Part shown: one piece after another, positions 3,403 through 63,032 of the stretch | How positions within the stretch are numbered: the first letter of the stretch is position 1 | Layout of the letters: each line of letters begins with the position of its first letter | The notes under the pieces: generated by a model | The model's database searches: none | Seen by the model: only the letters and a program-made list of their open reading frames with translations | What the model was told of the DNA's origin: nothing | Position numbers and translations under genes: made by a program | Assembly (NCBI GenBank): GCA_000004985.1 | Contig: GG738858.1 | Length of the DNA: 64,000 bases | DNA from: Naegleria gruberi | Taxonomy: Eukaryota | Direction: 5' to 3' (one strand)

Positions 3403-3473
3403 GCATTAGTAGTGTAACGGTATCATACCAGCCTTCCAAGCTGGTGACCCGGGTTCGACTCCCGGCTAATGCA
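3403..3473 (+). tRNA. tRNA-Gly (anticodon UCC), 71 nt, no intron
   Basis: GCATTAGTAGTGTAACGGTATCATACCAGCCTTCCAAGCTGGTGACCCGGGTTCGACTCCCGGCTAATGCA folds as a cloverleaf: 7-bp acceptor stem, anticodon loop CTTCCAA, T-arm GGGTTCGACTCCC. Near-identical to eukaryotic cytosolic tRNA-Gly-TCC. Confidence 0.85.
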
Positions 3474-14190: not shown

Positions 14191-14590
14191 TTTTTTAATT
14201 TAACTATTTAAATTCAGTTCCTTGTCTATGCAGTGCGTTTATTTGTACAGACGAGAAAATTGTTCTTATTAGGTTTAAGAAAATACATAAAATATTTATT
14301 AAGTTACCCAATGGAACAGAAGAATATTGAGGTAATATAAATTGTAACAGTTCAACATTAAGTGTGCACATCATTAACAATTATAGAAAATTACAATAGT
14401 TACGCATCTGATGATGCTTTTGCGTTTCAGTCGAGCTGCGAACTAAGTGTTGTACTACACTTGCTGAGTTGGAGTGAAGGTTGATTCAATCAATGCAAAT
14501 TCATTCTTCAATAATTTCCCTCCAAAATTTACTCCCTTAACCGACCTTTCTTAGAAACAAACAAACGTTAAGTTTTAAAATATAAAAAAA

Positions 14591-15772
14591 ATGTATAGAG
14601 CAGAGCCTTCTCAAAATCATCTCTGTACCCGTGCAGTCAGAGAGAGGAGTTATAAAAAGCATAGGGATGCTTTAGCAACAATTAAACCTTCTATTGATAA
14701 TTCTTCTCCGAAGTCCTTCCCTCACTTGAAATCCAATTTGAAGAAGAAGCAATTGGAAAAGGGTACGTAATTTTAATAATTTACAGTGAGCGTTATTAAC
14801 AAGCATTGTTCATTATTTACAGAGAGAGGTGATCAAATAGGTAAAGACAATAGAATTCTTGTAGATAAGATGACAGAAATAATGGGAAAACACTACCTAG
14901 ACAATAAGAATAATAATCTCAAGTTTGTCGGTAGTCTTAATTCCGATAAACGAAGGAGGGATCTTAAAAAGATTACAGAGGAAAACTCTGCAATCCTTAA
15001 AAGAATTCAAACCAAACAACCTGTATACAACCATTTGAAGTGGGAACAAGAATGGAACAAATCCAGAAAGTGGATGAACGATAAAACAACTGCACTTCAA
15101 CCAATCAATCAAGGAGCTTACTATCCAATAAATACATCTGTAAGGAGGTCAAAGTCATTTGATGAGGACGATTTTAGTGATGAGGAACCAGAAACAGTTG
15201 AAGTTTATGAAGGTAATAACCAACAATTTGAAGAAGATTTCAATCCAAACGAGGACTTTGTTGACCAACCAAATGAAGGAGAACAAAGTAATTTAGAGAA
15301 AGAACCTGAAGAAACCAATCCTGCAGAAACTGAAGATTCTCAAGAATACGAAGCTTCTTTGGCCACTTTTGATTATGCAGACGAATCAAAGGTGGACTTG
15401 AATGAAACTATCGAGGAAACAAAACAAGAATCAAAACAAGAAACTACCACCACTACAGAAACCACTACTACTACCACAACAACTACAACCACCACAACCG
15501 AGGAAGTTAAAACTGAACGAATCTCTGGAAAGTATAAGGAAAAGTCTGGAAAGATTTGGGCTGTCACATCTTCCACTGCTTCAACATTTGAGTTGTTAAA
15601 TGAACAGGACGGAAGAAAGGCTGATGGTAAATATACTAAGGATTCCTCAGGAAATTATTCCATCACTTTTACTTTCCATGACCCTAGTGGTGACTCTATT
15701 TTGAACTCTGTAACATCAAACCTTAAAACTATTCCACTCAGTAATGAAGACGCCTTCACAAAAGAAGAATAA
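14591..15772 (+). CDS. CFAP97 (hemingway/KIAA1430) domain protein; exons 14591..14762 and 14823..15772
   Basis: Splicing (GTACGT donor, phase 1) gives ..FPHLKSNLKKKQLEK|ERGDQIGKDNRILVDKMTEIMGK, matching the CFAP97 consensus HL..K.KK.QLE.ER....RDNRILLEKM..IM. The acidic C-terminal half carries a 17-residue poly-Thr tract. Confidence 0.6.
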
Positions 15773-22949: not shown

Positions 22950-24536
22950 CTAGTTGTCAGAGTTATGTGCAACTTTTTTGAGATATTTCTCTAGTCGTTT
23001 GGTTTTCTTTTCAGTCATATTGTTCCCAAACAATGATAAATATTCCAGTTTTTTCATTCCTAACAAGTGTTGAATACAATCATCAGTCAGATCATTAGAT
23101 TGTAAGTCTAGATACTTCAAATTTGGCAACCCACTAATCCATTTGATTGCGTTATCGTCTAGACCACAGAAATTCATTTCTAGATAGGTCAAATTGATCA
23201 AATTCTTGTGCCAATATTTAAAACCTTCAACACTTTCAACTAGGTCAGTAAGTGACAAATGAAGACTGGTTAGTTGTTTCATTAAGCCAAGTTGTTTTAG
23301 CACTTCACTACAACAACCAACACATTCTGAAATATCCAATATAGTTAACCTTGGTAATTTTGAAATTGATTTTACCCCTTTAACAGATATTTGTCCACCA
23401 CTAATATTTAGATATGTCAACTCCTTTAAAGAGCTTATTGAGTCTAAAAAATCATCACAAATTTCATTTCCATCAATAAAAAGAGTTGTCAGTTTTGTAA
23501 GAGATGTCAAATATTTTGCTCCACTACTGGTGATTTCATGTTGAGAAATATTTAAATATGTAAGTTGTGTAAGGGAGGCAACTAGTTTAGCTGCCTCATC
23601 ACCAAGTGCATCAATAATTGAATGGTTGCCAATATCAAGTACTCTCAAATTCTTCATAGAGCTAATCCACTTAAGTCCTTCATTTCCAAAATCATTCTTT
23701 GATATATAAAGTTCTGTCAGGTTTATCATTTTAGTAAGGCTTTCGCAGGATTCACTTTCAATCCAAATTCTGTTAATATGGAGGGTTTGCAATGATTCCA
23801 TAGAAGAAATAGGCAGCAAACCTAATGGTCCTAAATCATTATTTCCAATATCTAAAAATGTTAATGATTTTAATCTACTAATAATGTCAGCATCTTCAAA
23901 AGTCAAATTACAGTTATTCACATCCAAACTTGTCAACTTTTTCAAAGAACTTAAATGTTCTACATCTTGGTTCTCCAAATGCACTGATGAAATATTTAAA
24001 CTTGTTAAATTTTCAATCATTCCAATATATTTCACACCATTAGCGCATTTAGTCTTACTAACATTCAATACAGTCAAATGTTTCAAAGATTTCAAACACT
24101 TGACACCTTCCCTGTAACAATTTTGTCCACTCAAATCTAATTCTCGTAAATTATAAAATCGTTTCTGAATAATTGTAAAAATCAAAAGATTATATTTTAA
24201 GTGCAAACATTCTACCCGATCAATATATTTCTGATGACTTTGAGAGAGTTTCTTCCATTCTCTCCTTTCACTAATCCGAAAATTAAATTTAATTCTCGTC
24301 ATAATAATGTCAAACCACTGTCGGCAAACTAGTATACAATTTGTTAGTACTTGAACTGAATCTAAATATGTGATCACCTCAAAAGTCATATCACTGGAGA
24401 GAAAATCAATATTATATTCTAGTTCTTCTTTTGAATCTGAAATGTATTGTTGATCAAGGAGCAATTTTAGATGGTTTTGGTTTTTGATTTTCTTAAGCTT
24501 GGAAATGATGGAATCAAAGGTGCGTTTTCGTTTCAT
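22950..24536 (-). CDS. F-box / leucine-rich-repeat (RI-type LRR) protein, single exon
   Basis: F-box MTFEVITYLDSVQVLTNCILVCRQWFDII is followed by ~14 LRRs (L.xL.L..N.I...G). The ORF extends to 24629 but its first ATG is at 24536. Confidence 0.7.
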   Translation of the reverse strand: MKRKRTFDSIISKLKKIKNQNHLKLLLDQQYISDSKEELEYNIDFLSSDMTFEVITYLDSVQVLTNCILVCRQWFDIIMTRIKFNFRISERREWKKLSQSHQKYIDRVECLHLKYNLLIFTIIQKRFYNLRELDLSGQNCYREGVKCLKSLKHLTVLNVSKTKCANGVKYIGMIENLTSLNISSVHLENQDVEHLSSLKKLTSLDVNNCNLTFEDADIISRLKSLTFLDIGNNDLGPLGLLPISSMESLQTLHINRIWIESESCESLTKMINLTELYISKNDFGNEGLKWISSMKNLRVLDIGNHSIIDALGDEAAKLVASLTQLTYLNISQHEITSSGAKYLTSLTKLTTLFIDGNEICDDFLDSISSLKELTYLNISGGQISVKGVKSISKLPRLTILDISECVGCCSEVLKQLGLMKQLTSLHLSLTDLVESVEGFKYWHKNLINLTYLEMNFCGLDDNAIKWISGLPNLKYLDLQSNDLTDDCIQHLLGMKKLEYLSLFGNNMTEKKTKRLEKYLKKVAHNSDN

Positions 24537-24934
24537 TTTTTTTATTAAGATCAAAAAGATTAAGATGATCTTGAAATTTTTTGAGTAACTTTCTATTGAA
24601 TTGAGGATGCTATTCAAACTAATGACCAATCTCTTAAGTATTGAATTGATCTTGTCAGCTGTGGAAATTTTCTTGAAAATTCATCAAGTTTACAAAAGCT
24701 GTTAATACAATTTCTCTGTCGTTTCTCAATTCTTCATTAAATTCAAGTGCTAAAAATCCATCCCTTTCTGCAATTAGTTTTACAATTATTTTCACTTTCC
24801 AAAAATTCAACGGTATGTCATCTAAATCCTCATCTGAACAGAAAAGTGTTTAATTAAATAGGTATATATAAGCATCTTCTTTACAATTATTCGAATCAAA
24901 ACCCTGGACTCTATCTTCAAACATCAATATAAGA

Positions 24935-25173
24935 ATATGTACTTTTATATACGTCTCTTGGCGAATTGGTATTAGTAGTTACAGTCCCATTTTTTTGGCG
25001 GGTAATTTTTTGGGACAGATACTGAAAGCCCTCGCCTTAATTTTGTATTTTTCATGCTCATAATTATTTCTTTCGCGTCCAATCTGTGACATTCGTTCCA
25101 TACATGGACAAATGTATCAATATCTTGTTCCTGTTTGCATTTGAAAAACAGAGACGTATATAAAAGTACATAT
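24935..25173. mobile_element. Putative non-autonomous DNA transposon (MITE-like). 24-bp perfect terminal inverted repeats ATATGTACTTTTATATACGTCTCT (24935..24958) and AGAGACGTATATAAAAGTACATAT (25150..25173); possible TA target-site duplication if the TIR is taken as TGTAC...; 239 bp with no coding capacity
   Basis: Found directly by reverse-complementing the intergenic sequence. Each arm contains TATATAAAAG. The right arm ends 8 bp before the cyclase ATG at 25182. Confidence 0.4.
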
Positions 25174-25181
25174 CAAAAAAA

Positions 25182-27678
25182 ATGCAAGTTCAACCTGTAC
25201 CAGAAGAATCCGTTAGTTTATTAGAAAGCACACCAAAAAGAAGGAAAGGAGGTTGCATACCTCTACATGCATTTGTCATGATAACAATTTCTGTTTTGAT
25301 TTTGAGTGGTTGTCTTTTAGTTTGGCTTTCGTCTTTCATTGTTTCATCCTATTCGATTCAGAATTTGAATACGAATTTGATAGACGAATCTGCACAAAAG
25401 ATTAGTAGAACACTTGAAGGTTTTTTGAGTCCAGTTGGAAAGGTAATGTTGATGATTCGACTAGTTTATCTTAGTTTCTAACTGTTTATTCGAACAATTA
25501 GATAACGAGAATGATGGCTCGTGACTGGAATAAGGGAGTCGTCACAGTTTCGAATATGAGAGACTATTTACATCCAATCATTGTAGAGTTTGGCTTCACC
25601 TCAGCTGGTTTCTTTTTCAACGATACCTATTCGTATAGATATGCTTTTTCTGTTCAGGGAACTGTTAGTTCATTATTTTGGGGTAAGTTTAACTTTCGTA
25701 CGATTTATTAATGACCTTTCGAATAGTTTATGTAAGACAAGATTATGGTCAAGTAATTTCTTACAGAGATAAAGTCAATATCACCACAGGAGACGTAATC
25801 GTTCCAAACTTTATCAAAGTTGTTCCTCAAGTAGTTAACACTTTCGACTATTGGCTATTTATGGTAAACTATACCAGAGACACTGGAAGCGAAGGCGCAT
25901 TTGGCGATCCTTCTTTTGCAGCTGGTTCTGGATTTGCTCTGACCTACACTCAATGGGTCTATGATCAATTTCTCTGGAAAAACCAAACGAAAAAGAGATT
26001 TATTGGTCTAGCCAAAATCAACCTGTCACTTGACTATATAGTTCAGTATCTTTCGAGTAATATTGATTTGATTGGTGATGGTTATGTGGTTGTTACATTG
26101 AATAGTGGAATTGTAATTGGTGGTTCAATTAATACAACTGTGAATGATGGAACGACAGTTGCGAATATTTTTGACATTGAGACAAGAAAAGCGGGAAAAA
26201 CAATTAAGAAATTTTACGAAATGAATGGAAATACCTTTAAAAACTTTTCGTCGAAAAGTTTGACAGTAGAAAGTGAAGGAGTGAAATATATTGTTTCACC
26301 ATTCAAGTTTAGGTATGAAAATTTGGAGTGGAACATTTTCTTTGTTTTATACGAATCTGATGTCAATGCCCCAATGGTAATGAGTTCTTCCATAAGTGTT
26401 GGAATGACAGTTCTAATTATCATTGTCGGTTTAGTGGCAAGTTTATTGACTGGTTGGTTAGTGGCAAGTCCAATGAGATTCTTAGAGAAACAATTCGAAT
26501 TCATACGAGTCATGAAATTAGAAAATGTCAACATGACAAAATCATCCCCATTCAGAGAATTTCATTCCATTTACGGTAATTTAAATGATACAGTCATGTG
26601 GCTTAATGAAATTAAGGCTTTCATTCCAGAACATGTCTTTGCTCAGCTTAATCAAAGTGAGGAAATTTCACTTCCACCTCCAAAAGAAACCAAAAAGCAT
26701 GCAAAGAAAGAAACCGAATTTGAAGATATGAATGCAAGACAGTCACGTTCAAATTTGGGTTCAAGTCAAGTTTTAAGTTCAGGAAGTGCCGTTAGCCACT
26801 TAGCAAGAAATTCATCATTCAAATCTCCTTCCATTTTCAAGACTGGTTACTTAAAGAAGGGATGTGCCTTTGTACATGTCAAGTTGGAAGGTCTTTCCAA
26901 TAAGGATACTAATTTCATTTCTTCCTTTTTTGAGAAATTCATGTCCTCAGTGGGTCCAATTATTAAGGTACAGCAGGCAAATATTCAGTTTATTACATGT
27001 GATGAATTTGAATTCTCCATTACATCAAAGTATGTGGAGGGCAAACTACTGGAGAAGACAATCGAATGTTGTAATAAGATTGTAAAGACCATTGATCCAA
27101 ATGATAGAATTCAGGCAAGAATTGGAATTTGCTGTGGAATGGCTGAAGTTGGTAATATAGGGACCAAAACAGCAAGATTCTACTCTGTCCATGGTGATGT
27201 TCCAAATTGTGCCCGTTACTATTCTGATCTTGCATGTCAATACAATGTCAATATGATAACAGATGACAAGAATTTACCATTGGACAACTTTATCACAAGA
27301 CCACTTGATAGAATTCAAATTCCTTCAAATGTAGTATTAACTATTTATCAAATAATTGCTAAGAAAAATCAGGAAAATGACGAGTGGCTTTATGAATTGG
27401 AAAATAATAAGCTCAATGACAAGTACAATGAATATTCCAACATATTCAAATTATTCAGTATCAGTGATGATAATTATGATGTAGCTCCTCTCATTAATAG
27501 TGCGAAGGAAATACTGGATCAATACAAACTCAAAGGTTTGGACGAAAGTGATCTTTCCTTTTCCAATTTGAGAAACTTGTTGCATGTATTGAGCCAATCA
27601 CCAAAGCAGGAAGCTCTTTCAATACTACAATCTTATTCGAACACACTTGTGAAGGAAATGAAATCAAATAAATTATAA
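25182..27678 (+). CDS. Receptor-type class-III nucleotidyl (adenylyl/guanylyl) cyclase: TM1, a ~330-aa extracellular sensor domain (Cache-like?), TM2, a HAMP-like linker, then a cyclase homology domain. Exons 25182..25442, 25502..25682, 25727..27678
   Basis: CHD motifs GCAFVHVKLEGLS ... IQFITCDEFEF ... ARIGICCGMAEVGNIGTKTARFYSVHGDVPNCARYYS (compare ariGihtG.v..G.iG..r..y.v.GdtVN.AsR). Two TM helices (ITISVLILSGCLLVWLSSFIV, MTVLIIIVGLVASLLTGWLVA). Introns have GTAATG/GTAAGT donors with consistent phases. Confidence 0.7.
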
Positions 27679-27788: not shown

Positions 27789-29654
27789 ATGAAAAGAAAG
27801 CAATTCGATGATGAGAAACTACCCACCAGCAAGAAATTAAAAGAATGCCCACAAATAACAAGCAGTGCTGTTTCTTGTGTACTTGATGAAAGTTTCGGAT
27901 CAAATTTTCTCCACATTAAATTTACTTTAACCAGAAAATCAATAATCAAGTGGAAAACAAATATTCCCTCTGATTTTATTCCTATTGAATATTATTTTGA
28001 TAAAGAATTTGTTATGGAGGTGGTAAAGAAGGATGGATATGAACTCAGGTGTGCTTCACATGAATTGACAAATGACAGACAAGTTGTTTTGGAGGCAGTC
28101 AAGAATAATGTAAATGCTATTTGGTTTGCATCTGCAAATTTGAAAAATGACAAGGAGTTTATAAAACTTGTGCTGGAAAAAGAAATTAATCATGAGGAAT
28201 TCATATATGGATCAGTACTCGCTTGTTTGTCGAATGAATTAAGAAATGACAGAGAAATTGTTTTACAAGCAGTAAAACAACATGCGTTTGCATTGGAATT
28301 TGCCTCACGAACATTACAGAATGATTACAATCTTGTTTTGAAAGCAGTTCAACTCCATGGAAGTTCACTCACAAAAGCTTCTTTAGAGTTGAAAAACAAC
28401 AGAACAATAGTATTGGAAGCAATCAAAAGAAATGGATCAGCATTCAGATATGCCTCAAAGAAATTGAGAAATGACAGACAAGTTATTTTGGAGGCAATCA
28501 AGACCTATGATCAAACACTTTACTTTACCTCAGAAGAACTGCAGAATAATAAGGAATTTATTTTAGAAGCAGTGAAAATGAATGGCTGGATACTTAAATG
28601 TACATCAAGTGAATTGAAAAATGATGAGGAAGTTGTATTGGAAGCAGTAAGACGAAACAGACAATCACTAAAGTTTGCTTCTGGAAAATTGCAGCAAGAT
28701 ACTGATTTCGTTTTGAAAGCTATTACGCAAAATACAGAGGCACACCAACTTGACTTGGACGGTGATGCAATAATTATTGAACGACAGCATATTTTGGATG
28801 CTATTAAGAAACAAGACGGAACTGTTATTCAAACAATACCAAGTCCATTTCAAAACGACAAGGAAATTGTAATGGAAGCAGTTAAACAAAATGGGTTAGC
28901 GCTAAAATATGCCTCACATGAGCTTCAGAATGATACTGAAATAGTTTTGGAAGCTGTTAAAAGAAATAATTATGCTCTCAAATATGCCTCAATGGAATTG
29001 AGAAATAACAAACAAGTTGTCTTGGAAGCAGTTAAAAGTCACTCAAACGCGCTCAAATATGCCTCAGAAGAGCTGCAGAATGATAAGGAAATAGTTCTAG
29101 AAGCAGTTAAACAAAGTGGATATACACTCAAATATGCCTCCACCGAACTACAACACGATAAGGAATTAGTTTTAATAGCGATTCAACAGTATGGAATTAT
29201 TTGCCCAGAGGAGTTTAGTAATGATAGGGAATTTCTTTTGCAAGCTGCTAAACCAAATGGACGTTCTGTAATGGAATTTGTTTCGAATGAATTAAGAAAA
29301 GATCAACAATTTATTTTGGAGCTGGTTAAACGAAATGTATTAGAAACTCATTATCTTCCAAATGAATTTAGACATGACATGAAACTTATGTCTGAGATAG
29401 TTAGACACAATGGAGTAGCATTGAAATACAGTTCAGAAGAATTGACAATTGAAGAAAAATATATTTTGGAAGAAGAAGCAATTTTACAAAATGGATTTTG
29501 TTTGGATTTTAGTTTTGAAAAATTTTGTAAAAGGATCACACGAGAATATCCTGAATTATACTTGCCAAATTACAAGTTTAAACATTTGGGTGTTGATTTT
29601 CATGTATTGAATGCGCCATTTAGCGTTCCTAATGTAGCAAAGTTGTTCTATTAG
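27789..29654 (+). CDS. DUF4116-type tandem-repeat protein (~16 copies of a ~35-aa unit VLEAVKQNGxALKYASxELxNDKEIVLEAV), single exon
   Basis: Highly regular repeat periodicity in the 621-aa ORF; the assignment to DUF4116 is from memory. Confidence 0.55.
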   Translation: MKRKQFDDEKLPTSKKLKECPQITSSAVSCVLDESFGSNFLHIKFTLTRKSIIKWKTNIPSDFIPIEYYFDKEFVMEVVKKDGYELRCASHELTNDRQVVLEAVKNNVNAIWFASANLKNDKEFIKLVLEKEINHEEFIYGSVLACLSNELRNDREIVLQAVKQHAFALEFASRTLQNDYNLVLKAVQLHGSSLTKASLELKNNRTIVLEAIKRNGSAFRYASKKLRNDRQVILEAIKTYDQTLYFTSEELQNNKEFILEAVKMNGWILKCTSSELKNDEEVVLEAVRRNRQSLKFASGKLQQDTDFVLKAITQNTEAHQLDLDGDAIIIERQHILDAIKKQDGTVIQTIPSPFQNDKEIVMEAVKQNGLALKYASHELQNDTEIVLEAVKRNNYALKYASMELRNNKQVVLEAVKSHSNALKYASEELQNDKEIVLEAVKQSGYTLKYASTELQHDKELVLIAIQQYGIICPEEFSNDREFLLQAAKPNGRSVMEFVSNELRKDQQFILELVKRNVLETHYLPNEFRHDMKLMSEIVRHNGVALKYSSEELTIEEKYILEEEAILQNGFCLDFSFEKFCKRITREYPELYLPNYKFKHLGVDFHVLNAPFSVPNVAKLFY

Positions 29655-44144: not shown

Positions 44145-46137
44145 ATGTCTAATAATCAACACGATCCTTCCACAAGCAACATTGAAAATCAAACCAAAGA
44201 CCCACTCCAACATGAAGTTGCATCAACACAACAACCCAGTGTGAGCACGAGTTTAAACTCTCAAAGAAGAGAAACAGAACAGTTGGAAGTCATGCAATTC
44301 TTAGAGATGGAAGATGTCCTCTCAAAGATGGATAAACAAATAGAATTCAACCACTCAACTCTACCTCAGCAGCAACAGCAAACATTTAACAACACTTCAT
44401 CGCAAAATAATTCACACAGACATAGTAAAACAGTTCAACAACAAGAAAACCAAACAACAATACCCATTCAGAAAGGTAGAAAAAAGGAATTTGTAATATC
44501 AACCAGGTGTGGACAGATTCAATTGACTTTCGAGAGGGTACTTTCGTTTTTAATAATGATTCTCACCATATCCATACTATTAGTAATGAGCATTCTTTCC
44601 ACTGGTATTGTAAGTTTCCAGAAAGCGTTTACGCCAAAAGTTAACTTCAAGTCAAGTCGTCTAAAGTCATTTTAAGTCGAAAAAAAAAGTCAATTTACTG
44701 GCAACAAAATCGATTCAAAGTCGATTCACAGACAACTGGCAATCAACTACAATCGATTCAAAGTCGATCCAATTCTTGTTTTAATTGCTTGCACTGCAGT
44801 GGAACTATTATCAAATAGACTTCTAAAGAACTTGGAGAGAAATAAAGGCTAAAGTAAGAAGAATTGACACCAAATTATGCAAATATATCAAAAGAAAATA
44901 AATTGAGTTAATTCTTCTTTCAACTGCAGGTTGGTGTTAGTTGATTTGGGGATCAATCAAAAGTCGTCTGTTTTTAACGTCATCCAAAATCAAGTCAGGT
45001 CGCACCAAGTCGATCAAAAAAGTTAATTTTTTGCGTAAACGCTTTCTGGAAACTTACAATACTATAGTAATCCAATCCAAGACAGAGGATACTTGCTATC
45101 AACATGTTGCTTCATTACTGGTCAACTTGAACGATATCAAAGTTAGTTTTGATATCATGCTAGGCAGTTCACTTTCAAAACAACGATTACTTTCTGAGGT
45201 TAACAGTACAATGAAAGTGGTGAGCAAAGAATTGGATGCTCTGATATTGGACATTCCATCGTACAATAAGGTCAATAACTTATCTAGAGAATCAATCATA
45301 CCAATGCTGAGGAAGAATTTCAATGATTTTCAAACTGTTCAAACCATAATGTTCAATAATGTTGTGAATAATGTTAAAGATTTCAACTTTTACAAGTTCA
45401 ATTACCTTACTCAACTGCAAATACTTGTTAATAGCTTGGGAGATCCATTAATTATTGCTGATAGAGCTGCGTATAATGAAGATGTGTACATGAATTATAG
45501 TGCCGGTGTTAATTTAATTCTAGTTTCGATTACATTACTAATCATTGTTCCAGTAATGGTAATTGTTTTAATTATTACTATTGGAAGAGATAATTTATTT
45601 ATGGATAAGTTGAAAAAAGCAGATGCACATGTTATTATAGAGGTAATGGAAGATGATCGCTTACATATTTTATTTAAGGAATTCTGCAAACTAAATAATC
45701 AATATTCTAAAGTTCTATTTTTGGAGAAGGTAATGTTGTACAAGGAACAATGTGAGAAAGTTTATGATTTGCATGATCAAATCGAATCTCTATCAGATGT
45801 TTCAGGAGGTGAAGCTAGTAAAAGTCTCAGCCATGAGGTTGACATTTTGGAAGCAAAGAAATTCGAATTGGCATTCGAAATCATAACTGAATTCCTTGAT
45901 AATGACAGTGAATCATTCTTGGGAGTGAAATTACTAGGTGGTAAAAGAGATATTGAAAAAGTTAAAAAGACTTTTGATGAAAAATCAATGAATTTACCAG
46001 ACAAACTTTTCAAATCACTCCAAACTAATGTCGCAGTTTACTTGTTACAAACCCACAAACTATTCCAAGCTCAACAACGGAGAAATAGAGAAGAACGTAA
46101 AAAGAATCGTCTGCTAAAACTTCAAAAACACAAATAA
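44145..46137 (+). CDS. Two-TM RGS-domain protein whose coding sequence is interrupted by a 452-bp TIR element. 5' part 44145..44607, 3' part 45061..46137 (RGS domain near the C-terminus). Could be spliced (donor 44610, acceptor 45081) or be a disrupted allele
   Basis: RGS motifs ILFKEFCKLNNQYSKVLFLEKVMLYKEQ ... ELAFEIITEFL...VAVYLLQTHKLF; TM helices FLIMILTISILLVMSILSTG and GVNLILVSITLLIIVPVMVIVLIITIG. Removing 44608..45061 (element plus one TA) fuses ORF 44145..44675 and ORF 44941..46137 in frame (..LSTG-T-IVIQSKTEDTCYQHV..). Confidence 0.6.
44608..45059. mobile_element. Tc1/mariner-Stowaway-like MITE. 27-bp perfect TIRs TTGTAAGTTTCCAGAAAGCGTTTACGC (44608..44634) and GCGTAAACGCTTTCTGGAAACTTACAA (45033..45059), extendable to ~40 bp with 2 mismatches; TA target-site duplications at 44606..44607 and 45060..45061; internal AAGTCG sub-repeats; no ORF
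   Basis: Reverse-complement comparison of 44601..44650 with 45010..45065. The TIR terminus contains the consensus 5' splice site GTAAGT. Confidence 0.6.
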
Positions 46138-49082: not shown

Positions 49083-49184
49083 ATCCTCAAATATTGTAAA
49101 TTTTGCCCGCCAAAATATTTCAAGTCAAACAAGGAAAACAAAAAGAAGAACGTTTTCTAAAATAAATATTATTAAAAAAATAAA

Positions 49185-51617
49185 ATGAAAGCCAACTTGA
49201 GTGTGATCAAGTTATCGGATGATTCACTCCAAACATCTACTCATCCACTTTCTAATATATTTAATGATAATGACACTAAATTCGAAACAAGTATATCCTG
49301 TAAACATGTTTATATTTATTTAAATATTAATGATGATAACTTTAAAATTGATAAAATTATTGTCAAGAATAATGGAGCCAATGTAATTGAAGTTTTCGGA
49401 TTGGAGAAAGGATCGTTTGATGATAGTAATGGATCATGTATTCTACCATCAAGTTCCATGTTAAAATTTCATGAAACAAAAAGTAGGACCAAACTTAATG
49501 AACTTTATGTTTTCGATAAGAAACAATTGAATCGTGCAGCTCTTGTGAGACAAGATGAAAAAGATTTTAAAGGATGGAAGAAACTTTCTGTTAAAATTAC
49601 ACAAACATTTGGTGATTATCCTTTCGGATTGCAATACTTTGCCCTTGAGAGTGAATCATCATCATCAGCAAAAACAGATGAATCGAACAAAATGTCTGAT
49701 GAATGTTCTACACCATTAATTATAAGAGGATCCACTTTGGATATTCCTTTCCTTTCCGATGATGATGAACCTATGATAAGTGGACAAGATCAATTAGAGG
49801 AAGCTAGAAAAATGGCAAAAACCAAATTGACCTTATCACCAGCATTGAATATTACTCCAGATCTTGGATCTTCTTCTTCAACACCTTCCAAACCTAAGAA
49901 AAGAACCTTACCAAGTGGTATTGCTGCTAAACCTCAAAAGACTCAAAAGAAGAATGATTTAAGTGATGACAGTGAAAAATCAGATAAGGAAACTAAAAAG
50001 AAAACTAAAAAGCCAGCAGCCAAGACAGACAAAAAACGACCAAAATTTAAATCTATTAGTGACGATGATGACGATAAGGCATCTGCCAGTGATAGCTCAT
50101 CTAAAAAGAAAAAGACAACTAAGAAAGCTGATGCTAAAAAGCCAACCAAAAGAAAAACAACCAAAAAGAAAAAGACATTGGACGATCCATCAGATACAGA
50201 CGATGAAGAAGAATTAATTGATAATGCAAGTGATGCTGATGAAAATGGAAATTTGGCAGGTTTTGTTGTCAGTAACAAAACAGTCATCAAAGATAATAAG
50301 AAACTTCAGGATGGTCCAGTTTGTACAAATAAGACTGATGTTTTACAAGGATGTATTATAGCTATTAGTGGTATTCAGAATCCAAAGAGAACAGAAATTA
50401 GAGAGGCTGCCATGGCTATTGGTGCAAAATATAGACCTCAATATACAGCTGACACTACTCACTTAATTGCTGCCTTTGTTGATGATAGAAATGAAAAGAG
50501 TAAGCAAGCAAAGAAAGCTGGTGCATTCATTGTAAATGCAGAATGGGTTTTTGATTGTGAAAAGAATTCCAGGAGAATGAATGAAAGTAAATATTCTATG
50601 CTGAAGGATGAAAGTGAAGACGAGATTGAAGGTTCTGATGAGGAATATCAATTATCTTCTTCAAGTGATGATCTATTGGGAGATGGTGAGGATAGAGAAT
50701 ATCGTCCAAAAAGAAAAAAGAGAAAGGTAGTAGAAAAGAAGACCAGATCTGTGAAAAAGGAAAGTGACGACGAAACTAATGATGATGGAAACGAAAGCGA
50801 TAAATCGCTAGGAAAAAGTAATAGCCAAAGTTTAGCTCCACCTCCAATTGTAAAATCAGAAAAGAAGGAAAATAGTCAAGTTAAATCCGAAGTAAATTCT
50901 GATGAACAGCAGGTAGTGGCTGATATTCCAATTAAGGTTGAAGAACTCAAAGTTAAGGAAGAAGAGAGCAAACCAATAGCTCAAGACTGTGCCATGGAAG
51001 ATGATATTCTTTCCTCGTCTGATGAACAAGAAGTTTTAAGATTGAAGAGTTTTTATGACAGTGGAAATTATTCGAAATCTTTTTCTGATTTTATTGTTGA
51101 GGATATATTTGCCTTAGCTTACCAAACAGCACAGGATGGAGAGCTTTTTGACTACTTTGACAAGTGGTCACTTAAAACACCAAGTCCAAAGTTTATTAGA
51201 ATGATTGCAAGATCATCCGTTGAAGGTCCAGAGGAAGTAGTCAAACAGTTGGATGAATGCAGAGATAATATTTTAAAATATATTGAGGTCAACTTTGCCT
51301 CTAAAAAACCTAAAACAGATGTAAAGATTGATGGACCTTCAAAAGCACTTCCATCCTTCTTTGCGGGGTGTGTATTCTTTATTGATAGGGCAGTCAAAGG
51401 CAAACAAGAACTCACAAGGTATATCATTTCTTACGGAGGTGAGATTGCGACCAACTTTGAGGAAAGGAAAAATGATATAACACATGTACTTGTAAGCTCT
51501 GAGTATGAGGGCAATATTGCATATAATGATAAGGTAGTAGTGGACTTTAAATTTGTTTTGCACAGTCATAAGAGACAGAGAAAATTGAATGAGGAAGCTT
51601 ATTCTGCTGATTATTAA
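49185..51617 (+). CDS. XRCC1: XRCC1 ortholog (DNA single-strand-break repair scaffold): XRCC1 N-terminal domain, K-rich linker, BRCT1, acidic linker, BRCT2; single exon, 810 aa
   Basis: BRCT1 GCIIAISGIQNPKRTEIREAAMAIGAKYRPQYTADTTHLIAAF...GAFIVNAEWVFDC matches human GVVVVLSGFQNPFRSELRDKALELGAKYRPDWTRDSTHLICAF...GRIVRKEWVLDC. BRCT2 FFAGCVFFIDRAVKGKQELTRYIISYGGEI matches FFQGKHFFLYGEFPGDERRKLIRYVTAFNGEL. Confidence 0.85.
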   Translation: MKANLSVIKLSDDSLQTSTHPLSNIFNDNDTKFETSISCKHVYIYLNINDDNFKIDKIIVKNNGANVIEVFGLEKGSFDDSNGSCILPSSSMLKFHETKSRTKLNELYVFDKKQLNRAALVRQDEKDFKGWKKLSVKITQTFGDYPFGLQYFALESESSSSAKTDESNKMSDECSTPLIIRGSTLDIPFLSDDDEPMISGQDQLEEARKMAKTKLTLSPALNITPDLGSSSSTPSKPKKRTLPSGIAAKPQKTQKKNDLSDDSEKSDKETKKKTKKPAAKTDKKRPKFKSISDDDDDKASASDSSSKKKKTTKKADAKKPTKRKTTKKKKTLDDPSDTDDEEELIDNASDADENGNLAGFVVSNKTVIKDNKKLQDGPVCTNKTDVLQGCIIAISGIQNPKRTEIREAAMAIGAKYRPQYTADTTHLIAAFVDDRNEKSKQAKKAGAFIVNAEWVFDCEKNSRRMNESKYSMLKDESEDEIEGSDEEYQLSSSSDDLLGDGEDREYRPKRKKRKVVEKKTRSVKKESDDETNDDGNESDKSLGKSNSQSLAPPPIVKSEKKENSQVKSEVNSDEQQVVADIPIKVEELKVKEEESKPIAQDCAMEDDILSSSDEQEVLRLKSFYDSGNYSKSFSDFIVEDIFALAYQTAQDGELFDYFDKWSLKTPSPKFIRMIARSSVEGPEEVVKQLDECRDNILKYIEVNFASKKPKTDVKIDGPSKALPSFFAGCVFFIDRAVKGKQELTRYIISYGGEIATNFEERKNDITHVLVSSEYEGNIAYNDKVVVDFKFVLHSHKRQRKLNEEAYSADY

Positions 51618-54214: not shown

Positions 54215-54395
54215 GATTAAATTTACGCATACATCTCAGTGCCACTGATCATGCAGTGATTCTCAATATCAACGGTGTTATCTTTATCCAAATTCACGGA
54301 CTAATAAGGAGATAGATTAACAAGGACCAAATACTTCCCGCCAAATAAACTACCGTTAATCGCTACAAACAGTTTAAAAAATTCAATAATAAAAA

Positions 54396-62061: not shown

Positions 62062-62338
62062 TTTTTTTTGAGTTTCTTGATGAACTTTTGAACTTGCTTG
62101 AAGATATTAATATTGTTGTAAAGCTATCATTTATTTAATTGAATTATGGATAGTTCCTCTGAAGAGAATTTGTCTAATAATAGTATTCTCAATAATTTAA
62201 TTTGAACAAAGGTCATTGAAACAAAGCAAGAAAATTAATTCCTTGTGGTGGAATTTTTTTTGGCGCCAAAATTTCAATATAAATACCACAAGGAATCTGA
62301 GCTGATTTTCAAACACAACAATTAGTAAATCAAAAAAA

Positions 62339-63032
62339 ATGCAAGCAAACAATCAAGTACCAACATTCAAGCTTCTCCTCGTTGGAGATGGTGGAACCGG
62401 AAAGACAACATTTGTTAAGAGACATTTGACTGGTGAATTTGAAAAACGTTACATTGCAACTGTTGGAGTTGAAGTTCGTCCATTAAGATTCAACACAACA
62501 AGAGGACCAATTTGTTTTGAGGTTTGGGATACTGCTGGTCAAGAAAAATTTGGTGTAAGTAATATTTAATACTTTACAAAATAGTTTACAAAAATATAAG
62601 GGATTGAGAGATGGTTATTATATTGGAGGAAAGTGTGCAATCATCATGTTTGATGTAACCTCAGTAGCCACCTATAAAAATGTTCCAACATGGCATCGTG
62701 ACATTGTCAGAGTGTGTGAAAACATTCCAATTGTCTTGTGTGGAAATAAGGTTGATGTTCAAGATAGAAAGGTTAAACCAAAATCAATCAAATATCACAG
62801 AACTAAACAATTGCAATATTATGATATCTCAGCAAAGAGCAATTACAATTATGAGAAACCATTCTTGTGGTTGGCAAGACAAATTGTTGGTGATCCAAAG
62901 TTGAGTTTAGTTGAAGAAATTCCAATTTGTCCAGTTGATATTGTAATTGATTTGGAAATGATTAAGAAATATGAAGAAGAATTGGCAAAATATAGTGCAA
63001 TTGCACTTCCAGATGATGATGAAGATTTGTAA
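62339..63032 (+). CDS. RAN: Ran GTPase; exons 62339..62554 and 62601..63032
   Basis: [36 protein letters not shown]...[10 protein letters not shown]|[21 protein letters not shown]...NKVD...C-terminal ALPDDDEDL acidic tail; GTAAGT donor, 46-nt intron, phase 0. Confidence 0.9.

What the first reader, a model, noticed from the sequence alone, without database searches (positions are those of the whole stretch)
24935..25173. Second MITE-like element: 24-bp perfect inverted repeats carrying TATATAAAAG, with one end 8 bp upstream of the cyclase ATG
ATATGTACTTTTATATACGTCTCT at 24935..24958 and its exact reverse complement at 25150..25173 bracket a 191-bp non-coding core. With the TIR taken as TGTAC..., both ends are flanked by TA, the same target preference as the element at 44608.

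Each TIR contains a canonical TATA-box string. The right one points at the receptor-cyclase gene (ATG at 25182). The left one points toward the divergently transcribed F-box/LRR gene.

This looks like a small DNA transposon that may have delivered, or been co-opted as, a core promoter. The TATA-to-ATG spacing of about 16 bp would imply an extremely short 5' UTR.
Basis: partly seen in the sequence, partly recalled or inferred. Interest (0 to 1): 0.6.

Follow-up and report, generated by a model that had tools for sequence, protein, structure and literature searches.

The report
Inverted-repeat module upstream of Naegleria cyclase
A 239-base stretch with perfect 24-base inverted ends sits directly in front of a receptor-cyclase gene of the amoeba Naegleria gruberi; it looks like a miniature transposon, but its interior looks like an ordinary promoter, and the available data cannot decide between the two.

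Summary
Arms 24935-24958 and 25150-25173 are 24/24 complementary, lie 191 nt apart, and are far beyond chance. The right arm ends 8 nt before the cyclase ATG at 25182. The window is Naegleria gruberi NEG-M.

The MITE reading fits the structure: perfect terminal repeats, small size, no coding capacity, sharp boundaries. Its defining test, dispersed copies, could not be run. No second copy exists in the 64 kb window or in the searchable collections, and the N. gruberi genome is not among them. The TA flanks are palindromic, so they cannot be told apart from a longer repeat.

Three findings change the picture:
- TATA strings are absent from the start-proximal region of 41 other candidate gene starts.
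- The core carries CCCGCCAAA, a promoter motif otherwise found in the window only 59-79 nt upstream of start codons.
- The left arm lies 398 bp from the LRR gene ATG, but 10 nt from the ATG of an unannotated DUF4116 mini-ORF.

The module is therefore most likely the working promoter region. Its origin is close to even between a transposon insertion (0.40) and a native divergent promoter with a 24-nt inverted patch (0.35). Interest is low to moderate.

The parts
24935..24958 (.). Left arm of the inverted repeat (ATATGTACTTTTATATACGTCTCT). Read on the - strand it is AGAGACGTATATAAAAGTACATAT, pointing left.
24959..25149 (.). 191-nt core: 36% G+C, no internal symmetry, no protein or RNA family match.
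25150..25173 (.). Right arm (AGAGACGTATATAAAAGTACATAT), pointing right toward the cyclase ATG.
25157..25166 (+). TATATAAAAG string in the right arm; first T is 25 nt before ATG 25182. It contains the in-frame TAA at 25161-25163.
24942..24951 (-). TATATAAAAG string in the left arm; first T is 27 nt before the - strand ATG at 24924.
24994..25002 (-). CCCGCCAAA, a 7/8 match to the E2F consensus GCGSSAAA. It is one of only three exact copies in the window; the other two lie 59-79 nt upstream of gene ATGs. Here it lies 78 nt upstream of ATG 24924.
   Evidence: consensus from PMC4862756
25174..25181 (+). A-run (caaaaaaa) directly before the start codon. This is the usual start context in the window (16 of 41 candidate starts) and lies outside the repeat.
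25182..25442 (+). Exon 1 of the receptor-type cyclase-like gene (P0001, 797 aa; 87 codons, donor GTAATG at 25443).
24885..24924 (-). Putative first mini-exon (ATG 24924, 40 nt) of an unannotated small gene; it begins 10 nt outside the left arm.
   Evidence: inferred
24834..24884 (-). Putative 51-nt intron (GTAAAG...TTCAG) that joins the mini-exon in frame to the DUF4116 open frame.
   Evidence: inferred from sequence
24655..24833 (-). Open frame with one DUF4116 repeat (Pfam 25.5 bits against cutoff 24.9); about 65 codons without a stop; not annotated and without a close homologue.
22950..24536 (-). F-box/LRR gene, 528 aa, identical to XP_002679350.1; its ATG at 24536 follows taaaaaaa.

Best explanation
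**What it is.** The 239-bp module is a miniature, non-autonomous DNA-transposon-like element (MITE). It has two perfect 24-bp terminal inverted repeats, a non-coding 191-bp core, and a TA- or ATAT-type site at each end. It inserted into the AT-rich spacer between the LRR gene and the cyclase gene of Naegleria gruberi, 8 bp upstream of the cyclase start codon.

**How it works.** Upstream untranslated regions in this genome are very short, so the element now has to serve as the cyclase's proximal promoter. Transcription most likely starts in or just after the right arm, near the A-run.

**What is shown.** The anatomy, the position, and the promoter-like content are shown.

**What is inferred.** The transposon origin and the promoter use are inferred.
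For: - The arms are perfect 24-nt repeats with sharp inner and outer boundaries and no symmetry beyond them.
- The size and lack of coding capacity fit: no Pfam hit, and no protein in the 5.8-billion-sequence database matches any of the six frames. There is no Rfam match.
- The element folds much better than shuffles (z = -5.0 as DNA, -5.8 as RNA).
- Perfect inverted repeats in the window show no continuum: 13 nt at most, then this 24-nt pair and the 30/43-nt pair of the element at 44605. The two long pairs therefore form a class apart, and the other one is clearly transposon-like.
- TA lies at both ends.
- TATA strings are foreign to other start regions of this window, 0 of 41, which fits imported sequence.
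- Removing the element leaves a 406-bp LRR-cyclase spacer, within the usual range.
- Because divergent ATGs here lie only 99-278 bp apart, the cyclase promoter must lie within the element.
Against: - No second copy has been seen anywhere, although the host genome itself could not be searched.
- The target-site duplication is ambiguous.
- The core carries CCCGCCAAA (3 exact copies in the window against 0.07 expected). The other two exact copies, and the one-mismatch variant CCCTCCAAA, lie 59-79 nt upstream of start codons.
- The stretch from that motif through the left arm aligns colinearly with the compact promoter of the XRCC1-like gene at 49185 (score 18.5 against a maximum of 16 in 500 shuffles).
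- An ATG 10 nt outside the left arm can be spliced in frame to a 65-codon open DUF4116 frame. If that gene is real, excising the element leaves only about 19 bp between two divergent start codons. That is hard to reconcile with a simple insertion.
Confidence: 0.4

Rival explanations
1. **Native divergent promoter with a local inverted copy.** The roughly 257 bp between ATG 24924 (an unannotated small DUF4116 gene, - strand) and ATG 25182 (cyclase, + strand) is an ordinary bidirectional promoter. A short replication template switch, or a conversion event, recently copied the 24-nt core-promoter patch of one side in inverted orientation to the equivalent position on the other side. Both genes now have identical TATA-containing proximal sequence.
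For: - The ATG-to-ATG spacer of 257 bp matches other divergent pairs in the window (99, 228, 236, 278 and 400 bp).
- CCCGCCAAA lies in the core 78 nt upstream of ATG 24924. In three other promoters the motif or its variant lies at -59 to -79.
- The distance from the motif to ACGT is 39 nt here, against 35 and 38 nt at genes 49185 and 14591, and the 81-nt alignment to the 49185 promoter is colinear.
- The arms lie at nearly the same distance from the two outward ATGs: 8 and 10 nt, with the TATA strings at -25 and -27.
- The DUF4116 frame is open for about 65 codons, passes the Pfam cutoff, and has a codon-usage score nearer to coding than to non-coding sequence (0.07; coding 0.15 +/- 0.13, non-coding -0.12 +/- 0.13).
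- Another promoter in the window (Ran, ATG 62340) has a 12-nt perfect inverted repeat around a palindromic E2F site.
Against: - The mini-gene is not annotated and has no close homologue. Its ATG lacks the A-run context.
- Inverted patches as long as 24 nt and 191 nt apart are rare, and none of 14-23 nt is seen in the window.
- The arm matches the k-mers enriched at -55 to -15 (CGTT, CGTTAA) only weakly; it has CGTATA.
- Arm-like sequence is only marginally commoner in other core promoters (11.8 against 11.0 matches of 24, p=0.009).
- Landing at the mirror position would be a coincidence unless it was selected.
Confidence: 0.35
2. **Selected hairpin or cruciform regulatory element.** The two arms are kept identical because they pair. 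They would pair either as DNA in a divergent promoter, or as a 24-bp RNA stem in a long cyclase 5' UTR transcribed from upstream of 24935, which would throttle translation.
For: - The predicted stem is very stable. The 256-nt RNA folds at -69 kcal/mol against -45 +/- 4 for shuffles, and the DNA at -31.9 against -16.4.
- The stem closes 8 nt before the start codon.
Against: - No orthologous or paralogous locus was available to show conservation or covariation.
- The closest available relative's cyclase homologue has no such repeat upstream (L001).
- There is no Rfam family.
- 24/24 identity with no G-U or compensatory variation is what a recent duplication gives, not what selection for pairing gives.
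- 5' UTRs in this genome appear to be far shorter than 250 nt.
Confidence: 0.08
3. **Transposon insertion that disabled the gene.** The element is a MITE, as in the best explanation, but it has no promoter activity. It cut the cyclase off from its promoter, and this copy of a large paralogous family is silent or decaying.
For: - The cyclase belongs to a multi-paralogue family (P0002 and P0003 at 41-47% identity).
- Its cyclase-domain match is below the Pfam cutoff and covers only the C-terminal half of the domain (20.5 against 21.9 bits).
- PMC12344493 reports that young transposons in N. gruberi are preferentially methylated and heterochromatic.
Against: - The 797-aa reading frame is intact across three exons.
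- The N-terminus is conserved with the paralogue.
- The core contains promoter-type motifs.
Confidence: 0.1

Closest known systems
Stowaway-like (Tc1/mariner-derived) MITEs with TA target-site duplication
   Same: Small size (239 bp), perfect terminal inverted repeats, an AT-rich and foldable body, no coding capacity, TA at both ends, and a position in the 5' region of a gene.
   Different: No copy number, no autonomous partner and no empty site are known. The termini (TGTAC...) match no terminus I can name. The TA is part of the palindrome, so a 4-bp ATAT duplication or no duplication at all fits equally well.
MITEs that carry transcription-factor sites or TATA boxes into promoters, such as the E2F-site-bearing MITEs of Brassica and other plants (PMC5950925, listed; my own knowledge of Henaff et al. 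2014)
   Same: A miniature element next to a start codon contains an E2F-like site (CCCGCCAAA) and TATA strings.
   Different: In plants the claim rests on hundreds of copies per family. Here there is one copy, and the motif could simply be native promoter sequence.
Short template-switch mutations, or quasipalindrome correction (my own knowledge of Loytynoja and Goldman 2017 and of bacterial and yeast quasipalindrome mutagenesis)
   Same: They create a perfect short inverted repeat with sharp boundaries within a few hundred bp, without target duplication and without extra copies.
   Different: Typical events are shorter and closer together. No ancestral sequence is available to show replacement rather than insertion.
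Compact bidirectional promoters of protists with very short 5' UTRs
   Same: The whole spacer between two divergent ATGs is about 250 bp, an A-run lies directly before the ATG, and upstream motifs sit at fixed distances.
   Different: Identical 24-nt proximal sequence on both sides has no counterpart in the other divergent pairs of this window.

Membership tests
MITE (miniature inverted-repeat transposable element) | Terminal inverted repeats of at least about 10 bp at both ends | tested here: met
   24/24 complementary arms with sharp boundaries
MITE (miniature inverted-repeat transposable element) | Short (under about 800 bp) and without coding capacity | tested here: met
   239 bp; longest ATG- or alternative-start ORF is 40 aa; no Pfam hit; the six-frame query found no protein
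MITE (miniature inverted-repeat transposable element) | Target-site duplication as a direct repeat flanking the terminal repeats | tested here: inconclusive
   TA, AT or ATAT can each be read as a duplication, but all are self-complementary and equally extend the inverted repeat. No longer direct repeat is present.
MITE (miniature inverted-repeat transposable element) | Multiple dispersed copies with different flanks in the same genome | not testable with these tools
   No other copy in the 64 kb window. No hits in the metagenome, viral or prokaryote collections. The N. gruberi genome is not retrievable.
MITE (miniature inverted-repeat transposable element) | Presence/absence polymorphism or an empty site at an orthologous or allelic locus | not testable with these tools
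   The protein clusters of P0001 and P0005 have a single member each, so no other strain or haplotype is in the databases.
Tc1/mariner-Stowaway superfamily | Terminal repeats shared with an autonomous element that encodes a DDE/D transposase | not tested
   No further copy of the terminal repeat is in the window. No genome is available to look for a partner.
TATA-box core promoter | Match to TATAWAWR | tested here: met
   TATATAAA and TATAAAAG occur in both arms
TATA-box core promoter | Position about 25-35 bp upstream of a mapped transcription start | not testable with these tools
   No TSS data are available. The first T is 25 nt before the ATG, so canonical spacing would put the start at or beyond the ATG.
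TATA-box core promoter | Used as a start-proximal element by other genes of the organism | tested here: not met
   0 of 41 candidate starts have TATAWAWR at -60 to -1. The motif is depleted, 28 against 44 expected.
Native N. gruberi promoter (as defined by this window) | Over-represented upstream motif CCCGCCAAA/CCCNCCAAA 59-79 nt before an ATG in the same orientation | tested here: met
   The fourth and only other occurrence in the window lies in the core, 78 nt before ATG 24924.
Native N. gruberi promoter (as defined by this window) | A real gene starts at the downstream ATG | tested here: inconclusive
   Cyclase side: yes. Left side: the spliceable 72-aa DUF4116 ORF passes Pfam and has an intermediate codon score, but it is not annotated and has no homologue.
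Short template-switch inverted patch | Single-locus perfect inverted repeat, with the ancestral sequence replaced rather than inserted into | not testable with these tools
   It needs an outgroup or another haplotype. Within the window the repeat is single-locus.

The most novel reading that the evidence does not exclude
The module is a palindromic, possibly portable, bidirectional promoter. Two identical TATA-type core promoters would fire outward from an E2F-like site, in a genome whose other genes start from TATA-less, A-run-type promoters. If it is also a multi-copy MITE, it would be a mobile promoter cassette that wires new genes, here a signalling cyclase and a DUF4116 mini-gene, into one regulatory programme in a discoban protist.
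Probability: 0.1. Interest if true: 0.5.

Novelty: new member of a known kind. Interest (0 to 1): 0.25.

Why it matters
If it is a MITE, it is one more case of a transposon sitting in, and probably serving as, a promoter. That is useful for annotating repeats in Naegleria, where few repeats are classified (PMC12344493), but it is not surprising.

If it is native, it shows that structure-only MITE calls in compact protist genomes can be promoters in disguise. It also points to an unannotated small gene.

The side result may be more useful than the element itself: this window gives first hints of Naegleria promoter grammar. The hints are an A-run before the ATG, CGTTAA-type boxes at -55 to -15, CCCGCCAAA or E2F-like sites at -59 to -79, and no TATA. 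All of these can be tested genome-wide.

Tried and rejected
- **Chance.** Rejected.
- **Extended or degenerate longer repeats, or a foldback element.** Rejected; there is no similarity beyond the 24 nt.
- **Inverted duplication of the cyclase 5' end.** Rejected; the outer flanks are unrelated.
- **Known RNA gene or structured RNA in the core.** Nothing in Rfam even at E up to 10, and no tRNA.
- **Coding remnant, such as a transposase fragment.** The 55-codon open frame on the - strand has no Pfam hit. A concatenated six-frame query found no protein.
- **Relation to the other element at 44605.** There is no sequence similarity; they share only TGTA near the ends.
- **Family members elsewhere.**
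  - The 20-mer found nothing in metagenome, viral or prokaryotic contigs.
  - A two-arm pattern found nothing in metagenomes.
  - The related Naegleria-like contig L001 has no match.
  - A literature string search found nothing.
- **Fetching more N. gruberi DNA.** This failed for three proteins.
- **Literature on Naegleria MITEs, promoters or TSS.** Nothing usable was found, and the genome paper is not held.
- **Core G+C as a sign of foreign origin.** Uninformative; the core is in the top 14% of non-coding windows.
- **The arm as a consensus core promoter.** Only a marginal signal.
- **Introner-like role for this element.** Rejected on sequence; GTACTT is a poor donor and there is no pyrimidine tract before an AG.

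Full report
**Source and setting.** The window is nuclear DNA of Naegleria gruberi strain NEG-M.
- The ORF at 25711-27675 is 100% identical to an NCBI N. gruberi predicted protein (P0001, 797 aa, on a 782-kb scaffold).
- The 528-aa LRR protein encoded from ATG 24536 is identical to XP_002679350.1.
- G+C is about 33% throughout. Genes are densely packed and have short introns.

**The observation.** The two 24-nt arms (24935-24958 and 25150-25173) are exact reverse complements separated by 191 nt.
- With up to three mismatches the 24-mer occurs nowhere else in the window, and no shuffle produced a match.
- Perfect inverted repeats with loops up to 400 nt reach 13 nt at most, apart from this pair (24 nt) and the pair of the element at 44605 (30 nt perfect, 43 nt at 95%). 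Markov simulations gave none of 16 nt or more.
- The repeat has sharp edges. The halves of the core are not related to each other (p=0.56), and neither are the outer flanks (p=0.70).
- The right arm ends 8 nt before ATG 25182. That ATG is the true start: P0001 begins there, homology to paralogue P0002 begins at codon 19, and an in-frame TAA lies at 25161-25163 inside the arm.
The first T is 25 nt before the cyclase ATG on the right. On the left, on the - strand, it is 27 nt before an ATG at 24924.

**What lies to the left.** The LRR gene starts at 24536 behind a typical taaaaaaa context. The left arm is therefore 398 bp away from it and cannot be its core promoter.
- Between them, on the - strand, lies an open frame (24833-24655) with one DUF4116 repeat (Pfam 25.5 bits, cutoff 24.9). 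It is only distantly related to the 14-repeat DUF4116 gene at 27789-29654.
- This frame has no internal start. An ATG at 24924, 10 nt outside the left arm, opens a 40-nt mini-exon that a canonical 51-nt intron (GTAAAG...TTCAG, 24884-24834) joins in frame, giving 72 aa.
- This product is not annotated and has no close relative in the protein database.
- Its codon-usage score (0.07 per codon) lies between coding (0.15 +/- 0.13) and non-coding (-0.12 +/- 0.13) sequence. About 65 stop-free codons are unlikely for old neutral sequence in this composition (my estimate, about 0.006).
- I rate this gene as about even odds of being real.

**What the element is not.**
- It matches no RNA family.
- It has no protein-coding relic detectable by Pfam or by a six-frame search of 5.8 billion proteins.
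- It is not similar to the other inverted-repeat element of the window.
- Its core G+C is unremarkable.

**Is it a dispersed family?** This is the defining test for a MITE, and I could not run it.
- There is no other copy in the window.
- There were no hits for the 20-mer or for a two-arm pattern in the JGI metagenome, IMG/VR or GTDB contig collections.
- There is no match in the one related Naegleria-like contig obtained (L001).
- Nothing was found in the literature.
- The N. gruberi assembly cannot be reached with these tools. No other strain is in the protein collection, where the relevant clusters have one member each.
- Absence in 64 kb says little: a family of 50 copies in a genome of roughly 41 Mb (my recollection of its size) would give about 0.08 further copies per window.

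**Promoter context in this genome.** I used the window's own genes as a reference.
- Of 41 candidate starts, 16 have at least six A in the eight bases before the ATG. None has TATAWAWR within 60 nt upstream, and the cyclase is the only start with it.
- TATAWAWR is under-represented overall, 28 against 44 +/- 7. TATAAAAG occurs only in the two arms. The 'canonical TATA box' is therefore atypical for this genome, which by itself hints at imported sequence.
- An unbiased k-mer ranking of positions -55 to -15 of 17 A-run starts puts CGTT, CGTTAA, ACCG and AACGT on top. The arm has ACGT followed by ATA, so it matches only weakly.
- Arm-like sequence is only marginally enriched in other core promoters.

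**The core looks like a promoter.**
- CCCGCCAAA occurs exactly three times in the window against 0.07 expected; 0 of 100 shuffles reached three.
- Two of these copies, together with the variant CCCTCCAAA, lie 59-79 nt upstream of start codons in gene orientation, at genes 49185, 54396 and 14591. The remaining copy is in the core on the - strand, 78 nt upstream of ATG 24924.
- The motif is a 7/8 match to the E2F consensus GCGSSAAA quoted in PMC4862756. Full-consensus sites are also over-represented, including a palindromic one in the Ran promoter.
- The stretch from the motif through the left arm aligns colinearly over about 81 nt with the 102-nt intergenic promoter of the XRCC1-like gene at 49185 (score 18.5; maximum of 500 shuffles 16).
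- Motif-to-ACGT distances are 39, 35 and 38 nt at the element, at 49185 and at 14591 (read).
- The leftward half of the element is therefore built like a compact native promoter.

**Function.** Divergent start codons in this window are 99-400 bp apart (34673/34772, 21014/21242, 10930/11166, 62061/62340 and 14190/14591). Promoters and 5' UTRs must therefore fit within roughly 50-200 bp.
- Whatever its origin, the module occupies the place where the cyclase promoter has to be. If the mini-gene is real, the same holds for that gene's promoter.
- A transcript starting upstream of the left arm would carry a 24-bp perfect stem closing 8 nt before the AUG (-69 kcal/mol for the 256-nt RNA). That should block scanning, so initiation in or after the right arm is the more plausible mode. 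This step is inferred, not shown.

**Origin.** Two explanations remain close.
- *For a MITE:*
  - The textbook anatomy fits.
  - There is a gap in the length distribution of inverted repeats, so this pair groups with the clearly transposon-like element at 44605.
  - The TATA strings are foreign to other start regions of the window.
  - Long template-switch patches are rare.
- *For a native promoter with a 24-nt inverted patch:*
  - The core has promoter motifs with promoter spacing.
  - The 257-bp ATG-to-ATG distance is typical.
  - The arms are placed near-symmetrically, 8 and 10 nt from the outward ATGs.
  - If the mini-gene is real, excision would leave only about 19 bp between the two divergent starts.
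- *Verdict:* I put 0.40 on the MITE (plus 0.10 on a MITE that silenced the gene), 0.35 on the native promoter, and 0.08 on a selected hairpin. One BLAST against the host genome and a look at other haplotypes would settle it.

The MITE reading is structurally reasonable but unproven. The TA preference is uninformative. The link to the LRR gene is wrong by about 400 bp. The promoter idea is right about position but not established as TATA-driven.

**Novelty and interest.** Novelty is at most a new member of a known kind, and interest is low to moderate (0.25).

Noticed in passing
window 44605-45062: The other inverted-repeat element (458 bp; 43-nt arms at 95%, 30 nt perfect) coincides almost exactly with an intron. 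Splicing GTAAGT (44610) to TATAG (45066) joins ORFs 44145-44609 and 45067-46137 in frame into a 511-aa protein with a weak RGS match. The donor lies inside the left terminal repeat. This is an introner-like arrangement. The exact spliced product is not in the protein collection.
   Followed up: partly
window 62238-62340: The promoter of a Ran-GTPase-like gene (ATG 62340) has a palindromic full E2F consensus, TTTGGCGCCAAA (62259-62270). It is bracketed by a perfect 12-nt inverted repeat, ATTCCTTGTGGT/ACCACAAGGAAT (62238-62249 and 62285-62296).
   Followed up: partly
window 49106-49114, 54337-54345, 14518-14526, 24994-25002: CCCGCCAAA, or CCCNCCAAA, is strongly over-represented (3 exact copies against 0.07 expected). 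All four occurrences lie 59-79 nt upstream of an ATG in the same orientation, which makes it a candidate Naegleria promoter element, E2F-like.
   Followed up: partly
window, -55 to -15 of 17 gene starts (e.g. 10930, 14591, 16190, 33359, 49185, 54396): CGTT, CGTTAA, ACCGTT and AACGT are the most enriched k-mers just upstream of A-run start codons (CGTT in 6 of 17 genes against 0.98 expected). This may be a Myb-type proximal box.
   Followed up: partly
window, 16 of 41 candidate start codons: A run of six to eight A directly precedes the ATG of most clear first exons (taaaaaaaATG). No TATAWAWR lies within 60 nt of any of the 41 candidate starts.
   Followed up: yes
window 25182-27678 (P0001): The 'receptor cyclase' matches Pfam Guanylate_cyc only below the curated cutoff (20.5 against 21.9 bits) and only over the C-terminal half of the domain. 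Just two N. gruberi paralogues and one metagenomic relative were found.
   Followed up: no
window 24655-24924 (- strand): An unannotated candidate small gene: a 40-nt first exon, a 51-nt intron and a DUF4116 exon, 72 aa in all.
   Followed up: partly
window 3403-3473: tRNA-Gly(TCC) gene on the + strand. It is the only Rfam or ARAGORN hit in the window.
   Followed up: no
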